Below are positions 9,704 through 57,339 of a stretch of 64,000 bases of DNA, in pieces (the stretch's first letter is position 1; every line of letters begins with the position of its first letter). The notes under the pieces are model-generated. The model searched no databases. It was given only the letters and a program-made list of their open reading frames with translations, and was not told the DNA's origin. The stretch lies in assembly GCA_951406725.2 (NCBI GenBank), contig OX597819.1, forward strand, positions 128,774,001 through 128,838,000, read 5' to 3'. Position numbers and translations under genes: made by a program. The DNA is from Octopus vulgaris (Eukaryota).

Positions 9704-9728
9704 ATATATATATATATATATATATATA

Positions 9729-9920
9729 TGGATCAAAACAGTTTGACTCAAATTCATTGGTACTCTTGAATTTCAAGCAATCATTCGCATATTCATATAT
9801 TTATGTGTCTAAGACAGTTCAAGAGTATCAACGAATTTGAATCAAACTGTTTTGATCCAAACATGTAACTCCCGATAAATTGATTGAGTGCCTTTCTTTC
9901 GTTTGTCCACTCACTCGTGC
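9729..9920. mobile_element. Small fold-back element next to TA tract (no ribozyme core found)
   Basis: Arms 9729-9770 / 9818-9859 plus a unique tail. Confidence 0.6.
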
Positions 9921-9963: not shown

Positions 9964-11220
9964 CTGTTGTAGTTGGGGATGGTCATGTTGCTAATAAAAA
10001 CACACGCACTATAATTCTGGTGTTCATTTGCTTCGGCTTTATTTTATATTAATCGTATTTCGGCCGGAGTTCTTTCGTCACACTTCTGTGACCTCATCAG
10101 TGGTCCTTTGCTTTCTTCTTTCTTTTTTGTGTCTTTCCTTACTAATGATCAGCCTTTTTGTATTCCTATTGTATGTGTCTTTATTTGCGCATGCGTATAC
10201 CTCTGTGTGTGTCTATGTTTTTAGTAAGAGTGTGAGTGGGGAGGGTGGGAATGTGCTTGTATTATCAGAATCCACTGTCTATATACGTTCGTTTAATTTC
10301 TTTTTATTTATTTTTTTCATGTGTTTATATCTACTTATTTTTTCTATTCTTCCTTTTTTTGTATTTAATTTAATTTATTTTGTTAATGTATATAGTTATT
10401 TAATTAATTTGCTTATCTGTGTATTGTATTGTATTCATATCGTTATCAGTTTATGGGGATCTTATTCTGTCATAGCTTGTGGTGTGTTGGGGTGTGTGCT
10501 AGTGTTCCATTCTAGTTTCCTATTCAGGCTAGCTTTATCTTCTATTATGTGTGTAGCTTCTGTAATTTGTCTGATTGTTGCGTCTGTTCTATGTGTAAAC
10601 ATGATTTTAACTTCTATGTTGCTGAGCGAGCCCCCTGTTCTTGCTCGGCATGCTGGTACAGAACCGATGAGCTATTTTCCTCCAATGCTCATTTACCCGC
10701 TCTCCTATGCTCCGTGCTATTTCCCCTACGTACGTCGTCGTCTTGTTACTTCACCGTCCCTCTGTAATCTTATACTATAGACTACATTCCTGGCTTTACA
10801 GTTTGTGGGCTAAATCTATATACTGTACAGTTCCTATCAGTACAGGGGTTCTACTAAAAGGGTAGCTTCTACAGATTAGGGATTTGATGGAGTTGCCTGG
10901 CCTTTCAACAACCTTAATTCTTAGCTTAGGTTTGTCTAGGGCCCTTCTAAAGCGGTACGCCTGTTTGCCTCTAGGGGTGGTGTCGATGAACATGACACTC
11001 TAATATTTTTGGCTATCATACCATGAGTTGGCCTTCCCTATTTTCTTCTTAGTCCTTTCAATAGTGTTCCATGACTTGCTCCTATAGAGTGGGCAAATCC
11101 CATTCCTATCGTTACGTATGATAGTTTCAAATTTCCTCGTGGATCCTTTGTATACTCTGATCCTTTATCTATGGCTGTATCCTGAGAACTGAATGCGGTG
11201 AACGAAATGTTGACACATAC
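9964..11220 (-). mobile_element. Penelope-like element 3' portion (RT thumb/linker, GIY-YIG, pLTR with hammerhead)
   Basis: Minus-strand frameshifted translation: IKVVERPGNSIKSLI, RNVVYSI, YVGEIARSIGERVNEHW. Confidence 0.85.
10062..10106 (-). ncRNA. Type I hammerhead, canonical core, stem I degenerate
   Basis: GGACCA-CTGATGA-G-GTCAC-agaagt-GTGAC-GAAA-GAAC-TC-CGGCC. Confidence 0.65.
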
Positions 11221-11329
11221 AGAAAATGTTCTTGTTGATTTTTTTTATTTATGAATTTTGTTCCTAAAAAAATCATTACAATAATCATACAATCTACGTT
11301 TTAAATTTAATTTTTAGTTACAATTCCTC

Positions 11330-15569: not shown

Positions 15570-16507
<938 letters not shown>

Positions 16508-16508
<1 letters not shown>

Positions 16509-16890
16509 GAGGTGCAATGGCCCAGTGGTTAGGGCAGCGGACTCGCGGTCATAGGATCGCGGTTTCGATTCCCAGACCGGGCGTTGTGAGTGTTTATTGA
16601 GCGAAAACACCTAAAAGCTCCACGAGGCTCCGGCAGGGGATGGTGGTGATCCCTGCTGTACTCTTTCACCACAACTTTCTCTCACTCTTACTTCCTGTTT
16701 CTGTTGTACCTGTATTTCAAAGGGCCGGCCTTGTCACTCTCTGTGTCACGCTGAATATCCCCGAGAACTACGTTAAGGGTGCACGTGTCTGTGGAGTGCT
16801 CAGCCACTTACACGTAAATTTCACGAGTAGGCTGTTCCGTTGATTCGGATCAACCGGAACCCTCATCGTCGTAAACGACGGAGTGCTTCC
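16508..16890 (+). mobile_element. tRNA-derived SINE family A, full length
   Basis: Pol III A box (tggcccagtgg) and B box (gtttcgattcc); near-identical copies at 19092, 29256, 56170. Confidence 0.9.
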
Positions 16891-16920
16891 ATTCCATATA
16901 TATATATATATATATATATA

Positions 16921-18895: not shown

Positions 18896-19091
18896 GAGCG
18901 AAAGAGCTAAGGAAGAAGGGATAGAGAAAGTGTGCGCGCGTGTGTTTATCAGGCTTTGTTGAATAGAACGATGCAAAAGTGTAGCCGAATGGTTAAAAAG
19001 TTCGCTTCACACTCATTAGACTCCAGTTTCGATCCCACTACGCAGTAACTCAACCATGTCCCTCCGACCACTTAGCGTTGTATTGACCTCT

Positions 19092-19471
19092 GGAAGCACT
19101 CCGTCGGTTACGACGACGAGGGTTCCGGTTGATCCGAATCAACGGAACAGCCTGCTCGTGAAATTAACGTGTAAGTGGCTGAGCACTCCACAGACACGTG
19201 TACCCTTAACGTAGTTCTCGGGGATATTCAGCGTGACACAGAGAGTGACAAGGCCGGCCCTTTGAAATACAGGTACAACAGAAACAGGAAGTAAGAGTGA
19301 GAGAAAGTTGTGGTGAAAGAGTACAACAGGGATCACCACCCCGCTGCCGGAGCCTCGTGGAGCTTTAGGTGTTTTCGCTCAATAAACACTCACAACGCCC
19401 GGTCTGGGAATCGAAACCGCGATCCTATGACCGCGAGTCCGCTGCCCTAACCACTGGGCCATTGCGCCTCC
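19092..19471 (-). mobile_element. SINE family A nested in an older SINE
   Basis: Full length; flanked by gttgtattgacc direct repeats (TSD). Confidence 0.9.
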
Positions 19472-19967
19472 TAGTTGTATTGACCAAAGCCTTGTGAAAG
19501 ACAAAGACTGTTTGAAAGTCTTTTCTCACACAGTGCTATGCTGAGTGGTCAGTGGATCAACTTCAGGAGACAAGTGTCTAGAAATATTTCCTTATACTAT
19601 TACTCATCAAGGAGTAACATCTTTTGATCGAATCAAAGGGATGTTTATTATCAAAACTGACCGAAGATCTATTTTCCAAGTCGAGTCAGGTTTCCGGCTA
19701 AAACACTCTTTCTCTGGCTAAAACATTCATACACAGTCAGAGAACCAAGGTTCGACAGGACCGGACCAACCAGGCATTTGGGCCACCTATATACATACGT
19801 ATTCATATATACATATAGGAACACCTAAGAGTAGACAGAGCTGTGTGGTTAAGAAGTAGTTTGGGGTTCAGTCCCATCTTGGGCGAGAGTTTTCAAGTCT
19901 AGTCTAGAGACGACCAATACCTTGTGAGGGAATTTGACTGACAGAAACTGTGGAGAAGGCCGTCCTA

Positions 19968-20078
<111 letters not shown>

Positions 20079-20154
20079 GCAGCGTGGAAGGTGTTTATAA
20101 GCCATTTAAGAAACACACAAAAGCCGTTCGATTCACTTCAACATTTAAGTTTAA

Positions 20155-20204
20155 TTTGTCAAAATATTTTCGTCGCTAAAATCCGCGACCTGTTCACTGA
20201 CAAA
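20155..20204 (-). ncRNA. Hammerhead, G3:C8 variant (HH-A, minus arm)
   Basis: Reverse complement of 20222-20271. Confidence 0.75.
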
Positions 20205-20221
20205 GTCCGTGCTGCACGGAC

Positions 20222-20271
20222 TTTGTCAGTGAACAGGTCGCGGATTTTAGCGACGAAAATATTTTGACAAA
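20222..20271 (+). ncRNA. Hammerhead, G3:C8 variant (HH-A)
   Basis: TTTGTCA-GTGAACA-G-GTCGC-ggatttta-GCGAC-GAAA-ATAT-TT-TGACAAA. Confidence 0.75.
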
Positions 20272-20409
20272 TTAAACTTAAATGTTGAAGTGAATCGAAC
20301 GGCTTTTGTGTGTTTCTTAAATGGCTTATAAACACCTTCCACGCTGCAATTGTTTTCGTTTCAGCACACGATCTCAGATCAAATTACTTGCTATGCGAGT
20401 ACATCTCCG

Positions 20410-20491
<82 letters not shown>

Positions 20492-21001: not shown

Positions 21002-21530
21002 CAAAGGCAAAGTAGACGGCTTATGATAAATCCATTTTGATAATTGAAGAACACATCCCTCTTCTTTCGAATCCTGGATACACTCGTACTTACATTGCTA
21101 ATGCCTTTGAGAAAGACAATAATAACCCAAGATTTATGCCCATTGTTGGATCGTAGCTAAACATCAATTCTGTATGAAAGCTAAAGTAACTGACCCAATC
21201 GTACTTGTTGCGTGGGATATACAAATATTCTTGTTTTTGGTGATTATCGTTAAATAAGAAGGTGAGCTCTTTTCCCAAATCTCGGCCATCAACTTTCAAT
21301 TCTCGGTGGTAATGTGTTACATTCATCGTGCAACTCATTTTTCTACGGAAATAAACACTTGTCCTTGCATAGCAACTGTTATTTCCTATTTGCCTACCCT
21401 TAAAATGTATGAAAAAAAGGCTAATATTTCCTTCAAACTTTGTTTTTCTTACGTTTATTCAAACCCCAAAGAATCCCTCTCAGCACGTGACTATGATGAT
21501 CCTCCACTACTTCTGCTCATGGTAATAGAT

Positions 21531-21765
21531 AGGCGGCGAGCTGGCTGAGTTGTTAGCACGCCGGGCGAAATGCTTAATGGTATTTCGTCTGCCGCTACGT
21601 TCTGAGTTCAAGTTCCGCCGAGGTCAACTTTGCCTTTCATCCTTTCGGGGTCGATTAAATAAGTACCAGTCACTCACTAGGGTCGATGTAATCGACTTAA
21701 TCCGTGTGTCTGTCCTTGTTTGTCTCCTCTGTGTTTAGCCCCTTGTGGGTAGTAAAGAAATAGGT
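21531..21765 (+). mobile_element. SINE family B (tRNA-like head, Meta/Sauria-like central domain)
   Basis: ggcggcgagctggc..gttcaa.ttcc..gtcaactttgcctttcatcctttcggggtcga..aagtaccag. Confidence 0.85.
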
Positions 21766-22451
21766 AATATATGCACATATTGTCACCCACTAAGGGACAT
21801 ACTCAAGTGGTTAAGGTCAAGCAAATGACAAGCAAATCTGTGATATTGAGTAAAATACTTGCTATAACGATATTTCTGCGTCAGCATCTCAGCGCTGAAT
21901 CTGTCCGAAATGTAATGGAAAACAGGTCAGGTCACAAAAGCAAAGTTTGAAGGGAATAATAGTAATTTTCTTTGACTTATAGAAAGAAGCAAATAGGAAA
22001 TAACCCTTACTGGTCAAAGACTAAAAAAAAGAAGGTAAAAATTTGTTACACAATGCTACCCGTTGACACATACTCTGATAGCAAAAAGTTAAACAAATGA
22101 TTAATTTTATCGTATCAGGGATTAGGACTAAGTCTGTCACCTCATTTAACACCATCACCATGTAGCAGTGAGGTTCAATATTTTGCAAGTACTTGGGCCA
22201 GATCTCTGATTTGAGGATATCCCGCTTTTTGCCTCTCTTCCTCGAACCATTTTCAGAAATCTACATCGCCTCAGTTCAACTCGCATCAGAAAGAACCTCT
22301 ACACAGTTGCTCGACTTACTAAAAATAACAACTGTTTTACAGAAGAACACAAGATTGGATAATGTGACCAAGATAATCTGATGTTATGCCTTTTGATTAT
22401 AGTTTTGTTGGATTAATGCTGACCTGAAGCTAAACAGCTACAACAGCAAGT

Positions 22452-22902: not shown

Positions 22903-23220
22903 AAATCCAATGTTATCAGTTCGAATATGCTTGATGCAAGTTCAAACTGGGGAACAAACTACTCAATGCGATTTGTCACGGAGAATATATCTCGCGAGTT
23001 GACAAATGGTGTGGATACACCTAAAACAGCTCGCAGCGCCATTTACCGAGACTGTCAGATGTTAACATCTCATAGTAGATGGTGCTGCGAGCTGATCTAG
23101 GTATACACACAACATTTGTCAACAAGCGAGATATATTCTCCGTGACAAACCGCAGTGAGTAGCTTGTTCCCCAGTTCGAACGTGCATCAAGCATATTCGG
23201 ACTGATGATAACATTGAATT
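22903..23220. mobile_element. Palindromic MITE-like element
   Basis: Imperfect inverted repeat over almost its whole length, centred on agatgttaacatct. Confidence 0.75.
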
Positions 23221-28844: not shown

Positions 28845-29255
28845 TACGTACATCTAAGCATATGTGTGTGAATGTGTGTATTTTTATACATCATAACGAC
28901 ACAAACTTAAAACGGTTGCTTTCTGCGCGTACACACGCATATACACAGCAATGGCGACATACATGTGTCACGTGTGTTTTCTGTCGTTGGAGAGCCTGTT
29001 CGTTATATGTGTGACATTGCATATGTTCGAAATAAAGAAGCAAAAAAGTTAGGCATGTGTATTTTCGGGTGTGTACATAAGATAAGTGAAGCAAACAGAT
29101 GCAAAGTGAAGTAGAAAGATATGTCAGTGGAATAAATGACTCGTTGCTACCCGTCATTCAAAATGTATTGCGACACTTAGCAAAGACAAATGGTTTGTAC
29201 ACACACTACAATATACGATAAGCATGTATGTATATAGCTCCATCATAGACATAGA

Positions 29256-29636
29256 GGAGGCGCAATGGTCCAGTGGTTAGGGCAGCGGACTCGCGGTCGT
29301 AGGATCGCGGTTTCGATTCCCAGACCGGGCGTTGTGAGTGTTTATTGAGCGAAAACACCTAAAGCTCCACGATGCTCCGGCAGGGGATGGTGGTGATCCC
29401 TGCTGTACTCTTTCACCACAACTTTCTCTCACTCTTACCTCCTGTTTCTATTGTACCTGTATTTCAAAGGGCCGGCCTTGTCACTCTCTGTGTCATGCTG
29501 AATATCCCCGAGAACTACGTTAAGGGTACACGTGTCTGTGGAGTGCTCAGCCACTTACACGTTAATTTCACGAGCAGGCTGTTCTGTTGATCGGATCAAC
29601 CGGAGCCCTCGTCGTCGTAACCGACGGAGTGCTTCC
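29256..29636 (+). mobile_element. SINE family A
   Basis: Full length; TSD catagacatagagg. Confidence 0.9.
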
Positions 29637-30034
29637 ATCCCATAGACATAGAGGCATTAAATGCGTTTACACACACATGTGCACCTATATACTTGTGCGT
29701 GCGTGTCTATGTGTGTGTGTGTAAAAGTGAGATTCGATTAAGTAGTTTCGGATAACACGGTTCTCTAACTAACACGGTACATAAATTGAGACAATCAGAA
29801 ATCCAAGTATATGTCAACAATGTGCAGATGTAGGTTAACAAAGATCTGAGCAATGCATTGGCAGTGACTGTTGTATGGCGGTTGGCTGCCATCAAATTTA
29901 TGATTCTCCTCCTTGCTTGTCTTAATGCAATTGTCTCTATATGTATCAGCTCTGATGCTGGTTATTACGCTTATATACACCAAAATATGATGTATCATCT
30001 AACGTTGTTTAGACTGAAGATTAAAATTTTGGTG

Positions 30035-34893: not shown

Positions 34894-35179
34894 CGGAGAT
34901 GTATTTACATAGCGAGTGACTTGATCTGAGATCGTGTGCTGGAGCGAAAACAATTGCAGCGTGGAAGGTGTTTATAAGCCATTTAAGAAATACACAAAAA
35001 CCGTTAGATTCACTTCAACATTTAAATGTTAGAGATGCAGCACGAAGCTTTGTCAGTGAACAGGTCGCGGTCTCAAAGCGACGAAAATATTTTTTGACAA
35101 ATTAAATTTAAATGTTGAAGTGAATCTAACGGTTTTTGTGTGTTTCTTAAATGGCTTATAAACACCTTCCACACTGCAA
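34894..35179. mobile_element. HH-A fold-back element with G3:C8 hammerhead at 35049-35101 (+)
   Basis: Homologous to the 1478 copy; GTGAACA-G-GTCGC..GCGAC-GAAA retained. Confidence 0.85.
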
Positions 35180-36255
35180 TGGTTTTTTGTTTTTCCTTTC
35201 TGGTAAAACAATGGTAACAATCTGTCTCGTTTAATTATTCGAAATTGATGCCTTTTATAGTGCAACGTCGGGATCACCAATTGTAACGGTTGGTATTCGT
35301 TGCAATCGAAGATCACCAATTGTAACGGTTTAAACAATAATTGATAAGCAATAGGATGGAACGTCGGAGTCGTCACCAATTGTAACGGCACAGATTTATT
35401 ACAACGGCATTGTTGTAAGATGTCAAAGATGAACAGTGATTGAAGTTGTAAAGAGATTTTCATTTACCGTTACTTTGTATAAATCCAAAACCACGAGGGG
35501 TTGGTATTTAGAACTAATAAATGGAAAAGCATGCGAGGTAAAAAGAGTTAATTTCGGCCGGTATGTGTGTACACGATCTCATAGTAGTATTATATATAGA
35601 GAGATATGGTAATGTTACATAGAAAAGAAAGTGAGATAGTGAAAGTAAGAGAGTTGGGGAAGTTGTCTTGTATAGCCGCTGATTATAACTTTCTTTTTCC
35701 CTCTGGCCGTTTGGTCTCTAGTTGACTACCTGCTGGTGGCCATGATTCACTGATAGTGACTTTGGCTTACGGAGTTCTTATTTTTATAACTATCAAAGCT
35801 AGCCAGAAGGACAGACATATCGTTGAGTACAATGAACTTCATTGGCCGGCTGTTATCTCTATTCTAGCGAAGACATTATTCTGTTTAGTGAAGGCATCTG
35901 GCAAATGTAACTGCTGTCAGTCATAGAACAACTATTGCTTTACCGGGGAATAGCACCAGAAAACTTTGCAGAGATTTCCAATCCAAAACTTTGTGTTAAC
36001 AACGCATACAAAACGAGGTACAATGTCCGCAAAAATGACGTCGCTAAAACATCTACATCGGAGAATGTAAATGGGAAATTCCTCTTGATTTACTTTTAGT
36101 TTACTTTCTGAACCCCAAATCTCAAACAAAAAAAAAAAAAACGATTTCTGTTCACACTTCTGAGGAAACCACTTTTACCGACATACAAGATCGTACACAC
36201 ACACACATAGTACACACACACATATTCTCTTTCTCTCTCTCTCTCTTTCTTTCCC

Positions 36256-56169: not shown

Positions 56170-56552
56170 GGAGGTGTAATGGCCCAGTGGTTAGAGCAGC
56201 GGACTCGCAGTCATAGGATCGCGGTTTCGATTCCCAGACCGGGCGTTGTGAGTGTTTATTGAGCGAAAACACCTAAAAGCTCCACGAGGCTCCGGCAGGG
56301 GATGGTGGTGATCCCTGCTGTACTCTTTCACCACAACTTTCTCTCACTCTTACTTCCTGTTTCTGTTGTACCTGTATTTCAAAGGGCCGGCCTTGTCACT
56401 CTCTGTGTCACGCTGAATATCCCCGAGAACTACATTAAGGGTGCACGTGTCTGTGGAGTGCTCAGCCACTTACACGTTAATTTCACGAGCAGGCTGTTCC
56501 GTTGATTCGGATCAACCGGAACCCTCATCGTCGTAACCGACGGAGTGCTTCC
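56170..56552 (+). mobile_element. SINE family A
   Basis: Full length; TSD atatacatcagtgt. Confidence 0.9.
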
Positions 56553-57339
56553 ATCCATATATACATCAGTGTTTAAATAAACTGTCAACTGATTTCACAT
56601 TTTCCAATGTGTTGCTAGAAATGGCAGCTAAACACCTTTGAATCTCACCTACCATTTTGAAAAGAAGACAAAAGAAAAAGATACATTTGACAATGTAGTT
56701 CTAGATATGAAAAGATCACTGCAATGCCTTTTTACACAGCTGACCTGGGATTAAATAACAACCACCAATACCATCATCGTGATCCAACGAAAAAGCCTCT
56801 TTCTGGTCGCTCTGTCTGTTAGAAATAGCAGCAAAATCTCCGTCACATAAATCTTTATGTACTGAAAAAGAAAAGGAAGGACACTTTGGAGAATGTAATT
56901 ATAATTATTCAAAGACGAGATGGCCGCATCTAAGAATGATTTATGCGTGATTTGGCTGTTATTTCTAGCGACCATATAAAGGACCACTCATTGATTGTTT
57001 CTCTAGTTAAAACAGTTGACGCATTTCGCCCATTTCTTTGAATGTGGTAGAAGGGAAATCGAAGAAACGGTTTCCTGTAATACAATAATGCTTTTATCTT
57101 TTATGGTGTTGTGTGATCATCTCTTTTGAGTAAAACTGCATCGAAATGTCACACAAAAATCTAGGGATGAGTTTGAGAACCGCTGAGTTACACCCTCACA
57201 TAAAGCAGAAATCCTGAGTTATCTACATTTTCTTCTGTTTAGCTTCTGGGAATTGCAGATAAATCACTATTCTAAGGAGTCTACCGATATTTACAGAATG
57301 TAGGGCAGTGAAGCTAACGAAAACGATAGCGATGCAGTT

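What the first reader, a model, noticed from the sequence alone, without database searches (positions are those of the whole stretch)
20222..20271. Hammerhead with inverted 3:8 tertiary pair (GUGAACA instead of CUGANGA) fixed in a repeat family
Seen: all four HH-A motifs (1673, 20229, its minus-strand mirror, 35056) read GTGAACA between stem I (TTTGTCA/TGACAAA) and a 5-bp stem II, while loop II varies. Established: C3-G8 is a tertiary Watson-Crick pair and the double swap G3:C8 rescues activity. Inference: a natural compensatory variant that standard CUGANGA searches would miss. It also has an extra nucleotide after A9 and a predicted UUU cleavage triplet.
Basis: partly seen in the sequence, partly recalled or inferred. 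Interest (0 to 1): 0.85.

Follow-up and report, generated by a model that had tools for sequence, protein, structure and literature searches.

The report
Retroelement hammerhead with swapped core pair
A mobile element repeated thousands of times in this animal genome carries a small hammerhead-shaped RNA motif whose two paired core letters are swapped (G-C where its sister elements have C-G); it likely still cuts RNA slowly, but cutting is untested.

Summary
The motif is a minimal type I hammerhead in the pseudo-LTR of a young Neptune-type Penelope-like retroelement (RT + GIY-YIG). It lies 56 nt upstream of the ORF start. The three window elements are 5'-truncated copies; the 'mirror' is the usual inverted duplicate, not an independent case. 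G3:C8 is the source-element state: 5645 of 6144 copies, all 12 long-ORF copies, and the oldest subfamily. Sister families in the same genome have C3:G8, with compensatory stem changes, so the swap is natural and compensatory. Activity is not shown. Only 1 of 99 copy 5' ends maps to the predicted cut. Stem III is weak and G3-U17 mispairing is predicted. A sister family has fixed another core change (A9C). The extra nucleotide after A9 is a general Penelope feature. The lab double mutant is known to rescue partly and natural U3:A8 is known; I found no published natural G3:C8, but key papers were not held. This scan noted G3:C8 hammerheads behind Penelope-like RTs in two other genomes (unchecked). 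Verdict: new variant of a known kind.

The parts
20222..20271 (+). Minimal type I hammerhead-like motif: stem I 20222-20228/20265-20271, core G3=20229 to A9=20235 (C8=20234), extra G 20236, stem II 20237-20241/20250-20254, GAAA 20255-20258, palindromic AATATT 20258-20263, predicted cut after U17=20264
20155..20204 (-). Same motif in the inverted duplicate arm (G3 at 20197)
20075..20413 (+). Solo pLTR insertion in (TA)n: 138-bp inverted repeat 20075-20351 plus about 62-nt tail on the + arm only; 5'-truncated
20321..20413 (+). First 31 codons of the Penelope-like ORF ([10 protein letters not shown]...), in frame with the RT-endonuclease ORF in tandem copy L092
1478..1797 (+). Second copy of the element; motif 1666-1716 (G3 at 1673); the tail-bearing arm is on the minus strand and lacks the core
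34895..35181 (+). Third, older copy; motif from 35049 (G3 at 35056) with a two-U insertion in stem III

Best explanation
This is the minimal hammerhead motif of a Neptune-type Penelope-like retroelement, with the 3:8 core pair swapped to G3:C8 in the whole family; it likely remains a slow, protein- or dimer-assisted self-cleaver. Shown: position in the pLTR between the likely transcript start (about 22 nt before G3) and the ORF start (56 nt after the predicted cut), fixation in source elements, C3:G8 in sister families. Inferred: cleavage would remove the capped 5' 58 nt of the element mRNA or trim tandem transcripts; it is not needed for insertion, because new copies come almost only from uncut RNA. 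The copy at 20229 itself is likely inert: it lacks the start site, and read-through RNA would fold into a long hairpin.
For: GIY-YIG (PF01541) and an RT-type YVDD motif lie upstream of the motif. 12 of 12 long-ORF loci and 27 of 30 endonuclease loci carry G3:C8 about 1 kb after the stop (2 had no motif within the locus, 1 no ORF end found). 5645 of 6144 N3/N8 matches are G3:C8. In the oldest subfamily (about 14% from the young copies) C8 is 91 of 100 listed and G3 29 of 29. Sister families share TGTCA..GTCGC..GAAA but read CUGAAGA or CUGAUGA; one sister ORF is 55% identical over 815 aa. On 9 chosen rows 91.5% of cells pair versus 22-52% when slid, with double changes in stems I and II and at 3:8. 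Source-level variants hit 4 of 7 loop II sites but 1 of 35 core and stem sites, and that one keeps a wobble (p=0.0015). In another Penelope-like element C3G/G8C partly rescues and cleavage needs the element's protein (PMC11167929, section read).
Against: No cleavage data. 1 of 99 arms begins at the predicted cut, and that one is explained by inversion microhomology; 35 of 99 begin at -2..+1. G3-U17 pairing is predicted at P=0.67, the stem III duplex is -0.2 kcal/mol, and the active-like dimer (-27.2) is less stable than two monomers (-29.4). UUU is among the weakest triplets (recalled). A sister family with intact 1312-aa ORFs has A9C in 18 of 18 distinct copies, so core decay is tolerated in this clade. 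The swap is one evolutionary event in this genome. C8 to G changes are in unexplained excess.
Confidence: 0.62

Rival explanations
1. A hammerhead descendant that no longer cuts: the fold is kept as a binding site for the element's protein or as RNA structure, and the 3:8 pair is kept for shape or by drift.
For: No 5'-end peak at the cut site. Sister family fixed A9C. Catalytic mutants do not impair insertion in vitro in another family (PMC11167929). Weak stem III and G3-U17 mispair.
Against: All other catalytic positions (U4, G5, A6, A9, G12-A14, A15.1:U16.1, H17) are kept through subfamilies about 14% apart. Two random core changes would rarely hit exactly the paired positions as a Watson-Crick swap (roughly 1 in 165; my post hoc estimate).
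Confidence: 0.28
2. The sequence is constrained at DNA level as the element's internal promoter, and G3 and C8 were chosen for promoter function; the pairing is incidental.
For: 5' ends pile up at AGATG about 22 nt upstream of G3, with an untemplated G in 19 of 35 flank-joined copies, as expected for a capped start. The core therefore overlaps the zone of downstream promoter elements (recalled).
Against: Compensatory double changes in stems I and II and at 3:8 across families point to RNA pairing.
Confidence: 0.07
3. A foldback or MITE DNA transposon with a chance hammerhead look.
For: 138-bp inverted repeat in (TA)n at 20075-20351.
Against: Arms are unequal, centres vary and the tail is on one arm only. 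The same sequence ends RT-endonuclease elements and encodes their N-terminus.
Confidence: 0.01

Closest known systems
Minimal type I hammerheads of Penelope-like elements (min-HHR; Cervera and de la Pena 2014, PMC4209133)
   Same: pLTR location, type I, extra nt between 9 and 10.1, G10.1-C11.1, tiny palindromic helix III, thousands of solo copies, inverted neighbours.
   Different: G3:C8. The representatives in the text of their Fig. S3 have C3:G8, U3:A8 or U3-G8, none G3:C8. The extra nt is G (their consensus is H).
Anolis Poseidon element hammerhead (Frangieh et al. 2024, PMC11167929)
   Same: Motif just before or at the ORF start; tail beyond the pLTR; insertion from uncut RNA; no ends seen at the cut site.
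   Different: There C3G/G8C is an engineered partial rescue; here it is the natural, fixed state. Different clade; the cut lies 56 nt before the AUG rather than inside the ORF.
Natural U3:A8 hammerheads (Perreault et al. 2011, PMC3088659)
   Same: Natural covariation at the 3:8 pair.
   Different: U3:A8 keeps pyrimidine 3 and purine 8 by two transitions; G3:C8 reverses that by two transversions.
Neptune clade of Penelope-like elements (as described in Craig et al. 2021, PMC8557442)
   Same: C-terminal GIY-YIG, CX2-5CxxC linker, microsatellite targets, tandem and inverted structures, tail.
   Different: Placement by tree was not done; the tail is about 62 nt rather than 30-40.

Membership tests
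Penelope minimal hammerhead | Literal core consensus CUGANGA | tested here: not met
   GUGAACA in 5645 of 6144 copies
Penelope minimal hammerhead | Watson-Crick pair possible between 3 and 8, covarying with sister families | tested here: met
   CG in 6 sister rows, GC in 3 window rows, which are one event
Penelope minimal hammerhead | U4, G5, A6, A9, G12-A14, A15.1:U16.1 and NUH triplet | tested here: met
   triplet UUU
Penelope minimal hammerhead | Stems I and II with G10.1-C11.1, extra nt after A9, palindromic helix III | tested here: met
Penelope minimal hammerhead | Located in the pLTR of a Penelope-like element | tested here: met
Penelope minimal hammerhead | Self-cleavage after H17 | not testable with these tools
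   indirect test on copy 5' ends showed no peak at the cut; only contigs, no raw reads, were offered
Rfam hammerhead families | Match to a covariance model | tested here: inconclusive
   no hit, and none for 5 canonical-core sister loci either
Neptune-type Penelope-like element | Single ORF with RT and C-terminal GIY-YIG | tested here: met
   YVDD and DKS motifs read in a 999-aa frame; PF01541 above cut-off; no Pfam RT hit
Neptune-type Penelope-like element | CX2-5CxxC linker and microsatellite insertion | tested here: met
   CQSNCAVC; (TA)n flanks
Neptune-type Penelope-like element | Tandem or inverted pLTRs and a tail | tested here: met
   L092 tandem, L031 inverted
Neptune-type Penelope-like element | Phylogenetic placement with named Neptune RTs | not tested
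   no named reference RTs were fetched
Non-LTR retrozyme | Non-coding head-to-tail tandem repeats | tested here: not met
   dispersed solo or inverted copies that belong to a coding element

The most novel reading that the evidence does not exclude
A naturally evolved, catalytically active G3:C8 hammerhead, fixed in a recently active retroelement family of over 8000 copies, in which selection restored the core pair by two transversions. That would show that cleavage matters for Penelope-like elements even though they insert from uncut RNA, for example as a protein-triggered decapping switch on their own mRNA. With similar swaps noted in other genomes, G3:C8 hammerheads would be a recurrent class missed by current descriptors.
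Probability: 0.35. Interest if true: 0.7.

Novelty: new variant of a known kind. Interest (0 to 1): 0.5.

Why it matters
The role of hammerheads in Penelope-like elements is an open question (PMC7761336 calls it a mystery). One genome here holds sister families with C3:G8, G3:C8 and A9C cores, a ready natural series to test whether catalysis is under selection. It also shows that CUGANGA descriptors undercount these motifs. The surprise is limited: the swap is known to work partly in the lab, and covariation at this pair (U3:A8) is known in nature.

Tried and rejected
G3:G8 intermediate lineage: rejected. G8 copies fall in all subfamilies and the oldest subfamily is 91 of 100 C8. Conversion from C3:G8 sisters: no C3:G8 among the first 100 non-C8 matches. 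Spliced exon 1 upstream of AG|ATG: no shared upstream sequence and no donor ending in GAG within 2.6 kb, although the upstream sequence looks like a 3' splice site. DNA search of the genome gave nothing because common words are skipped. Expression: no RNA holder listed on record; contigs cannot show ends. The contig pile-up missed the known 2.5% C8 to G variant, so it is insensitive at the core. Metagenome scan: 2 distant RT loci of 66 candidates; I read the 3' end of one (L360) and saw no hammerhead by eye. PDB sequence search: no hit. One search used a mis-registered structure and is replaced. My hammerhead scans missed the sister motifs until; the sister loop was incomplete. Papers not held: Lunse 2017, Hammann 2012, Przybilski and Hammann 2007, Martick and Scott 2006, Lee and York 2008, Arkhipova 2017.

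Full report
Observation. The 14-mer TTTGTCAGTGAACA is exact at 1666, 20222, 35049 (+) and 20191-20204 (-). The region folds as a type I minimal hammerhead: stem I, GUGAACA, one extra nt, a 5-bp stem II, GAAA, palindromic AAUAUU and U17. Rfam gives no hammerhead hit, but it also misses five canonical-core sister loci. The minus-strand motif is one arm of a 138-bp inverted repeat.

What the repeat is. The window lies in a 2.8-Gb genome, probably an octopod (recalled, not verified). A 21-mer across the core has 5645 exact copies, and a downstream 24-mer has 8381. The copies inspected are mostly about 220 bp, sit in (TA)n, often carry an inverted 5' duplicate and have a roughly 62-nt tail on one arm. 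These are the marks of Penelope-like elements (PMC8557442, passages). An inverted pair 2.5 kb apart held a GIY-YIG domain with a CQSNCAVC linker. Its relatives have open frames up to 1025 aa with a YVDD motif. All 12 long loci fetched end in the G3:C8 motif about 1 kb after the stop, as do 27 of 30 endonuclease loci (the two sets overlap). Tandem copy L092 shows the tail running on into the ORF, whose start codon lies 56 nt after the predicted cut. The window elements are therefore solo pLTRs.

Is the swap real and fixed? With N at 3 and 8 there are 6144 matches, 5645 of them G3:C8. In 99 arms picked by a downstream anchor, G3 is 73 of 76 and C8 77 of 79. The oldest subfamily I could define (12% pairwise, about 14% from young copies) has C8 in 91 of 100 listed and G3 in 29 of 29. 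Contigs from runs labelled as four organisms also read GTGAACA. A C3:G8 pattern found 13 loci, which on reading belong to other pLTR families, several with the same stem I and II starts. The sister with full ORFs is 55% identical in protein. I aligned 3 window copies, 5 of those 13 loci (chosen as the more intact) and L210. 91.5% of cells pair, with double changes in stems I and II and at 3:8; slid controls give 22-52%. The three G:C rows are one event. Source-level variation concentrates in loop II (4 of 7 sites) against 1 of 35 core and stem sites. Private changes hit core and flanks equally (1.9% and 1.7%), as expected for dead copies.

How it likely works. Copy 5' ends cluster at AGATG, about 22 nt before G3 (35 of 99 within -2..+1). 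An untemplated G precedes it in 19 of 35 flank-joined copies, which suggests a capped start copied by the RT (inference). Only 1 of 99 ends falls at the cut site; the anchor would have caught such copies. So insertion uses uncut RNA, as shown in vitro for the Anolis element, whose hammerhead cuts only with the element's protein and whose C3G/G8C mutant is partly active (PMC11167929, find and section 3 part 2). I infer a slow, assisted cleavage that would decap the mRNA or trim tandem transcripts.

Against activity. Predicted G3-U17 pairing (P=0.67), a very weak stem III and an unfavoured dimer; a weak UUU triplet (recalled); A9C in 18 of 18 copies of a sister family with intact ORFs. Unexplained: among non-C8 copies (344) the first 100 listed are G 45, T 39, A 16, while position 3 (155) shows A 61, T 29, C 10 (hand counts; p=3e-8). 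G8 copies are spread over all subfamilies, so this is not a surviving intermediate lineage.

What is known. PMC4209133 (main text parts 1-2 and supplement file 2 parts 1-2 read; file 1 not searchable) describes these motifs, the extra nt and a U3:A8 variant; its Fig. S3 text has no G3:C8. PMC3088659 (passages) reports natural U3:A8. PMC8495972 and PMC3884650 (passages) report partial rescue and engineered G3-C8 activity. PMC6765202, PMC7761336 and PMC6257768 (passages) and bioRxiv 2026.07.22.740005 (part 1) add context only. Nine searches found no natural G3:C8 hammerhead. Several central papers were not held, so absence from print is not established. Two earlier notes of this scan describe G3:C8 motifs behind Penelope-like RTs in other genomes; I did not check them.

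Verdict. A real, natural, compensatory core variant of a known ribozyme type in a known class of retroelement; activity likely but untested. Interest 0.5.

Noticed in passing
L210:2133-2190 and 18 distinct copies in fetched loci: A young sister Penelope-like family with intact 1312-aa ORFs has a hammerhead core CUGAUGC (A9C) in every copy seen; a second odd core variant in the same clade.
   Followed up: partly
position 8 of the motif (window 20234), genome-wide: C to G changes are about seven times more frequent than the neutral spectrum predicts and occur in all subfamilies, sometimes in both arms of one insertion (L324, L234). Unexplained.
   Followed up: partly
L092:1150-1185: A branch-point-like CTAAC, pyrimidine tract and YAG end exactly at the likely transcript start, 20 nt before the core; it looks like a 3' splice site, but no matching spliced copies were found.
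   Followed up: partly
window 10486-11242 (-): Broken endonuclease-end remnant of another Penelope-like element, closer to the sister family (63%) than to this one (41%).
   Followed up: partly
L134, L137, L175, L177, L178, L182, L201: Seven copies share one identical inversion junction, so an inverted solo pLTR was itself multiplied by some route.
   Followed up: no
L216:5827 and 4480; L223:3124 and 5847: Further canonical CUGANGA minimal hammerheads of other repeat families.
   Followed up: no
window 22904-23220 and 9721-9867: Two other imperfect palindromic elements, not identified.
   Followed up: no
window 16505-16905, 19091-19472, 29253-29650, 56170-56566; and 21530-21766 with about ten copies: Two abundant SINE-like repeat families with tRNA-like heads (by eye).
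   Followed up: no
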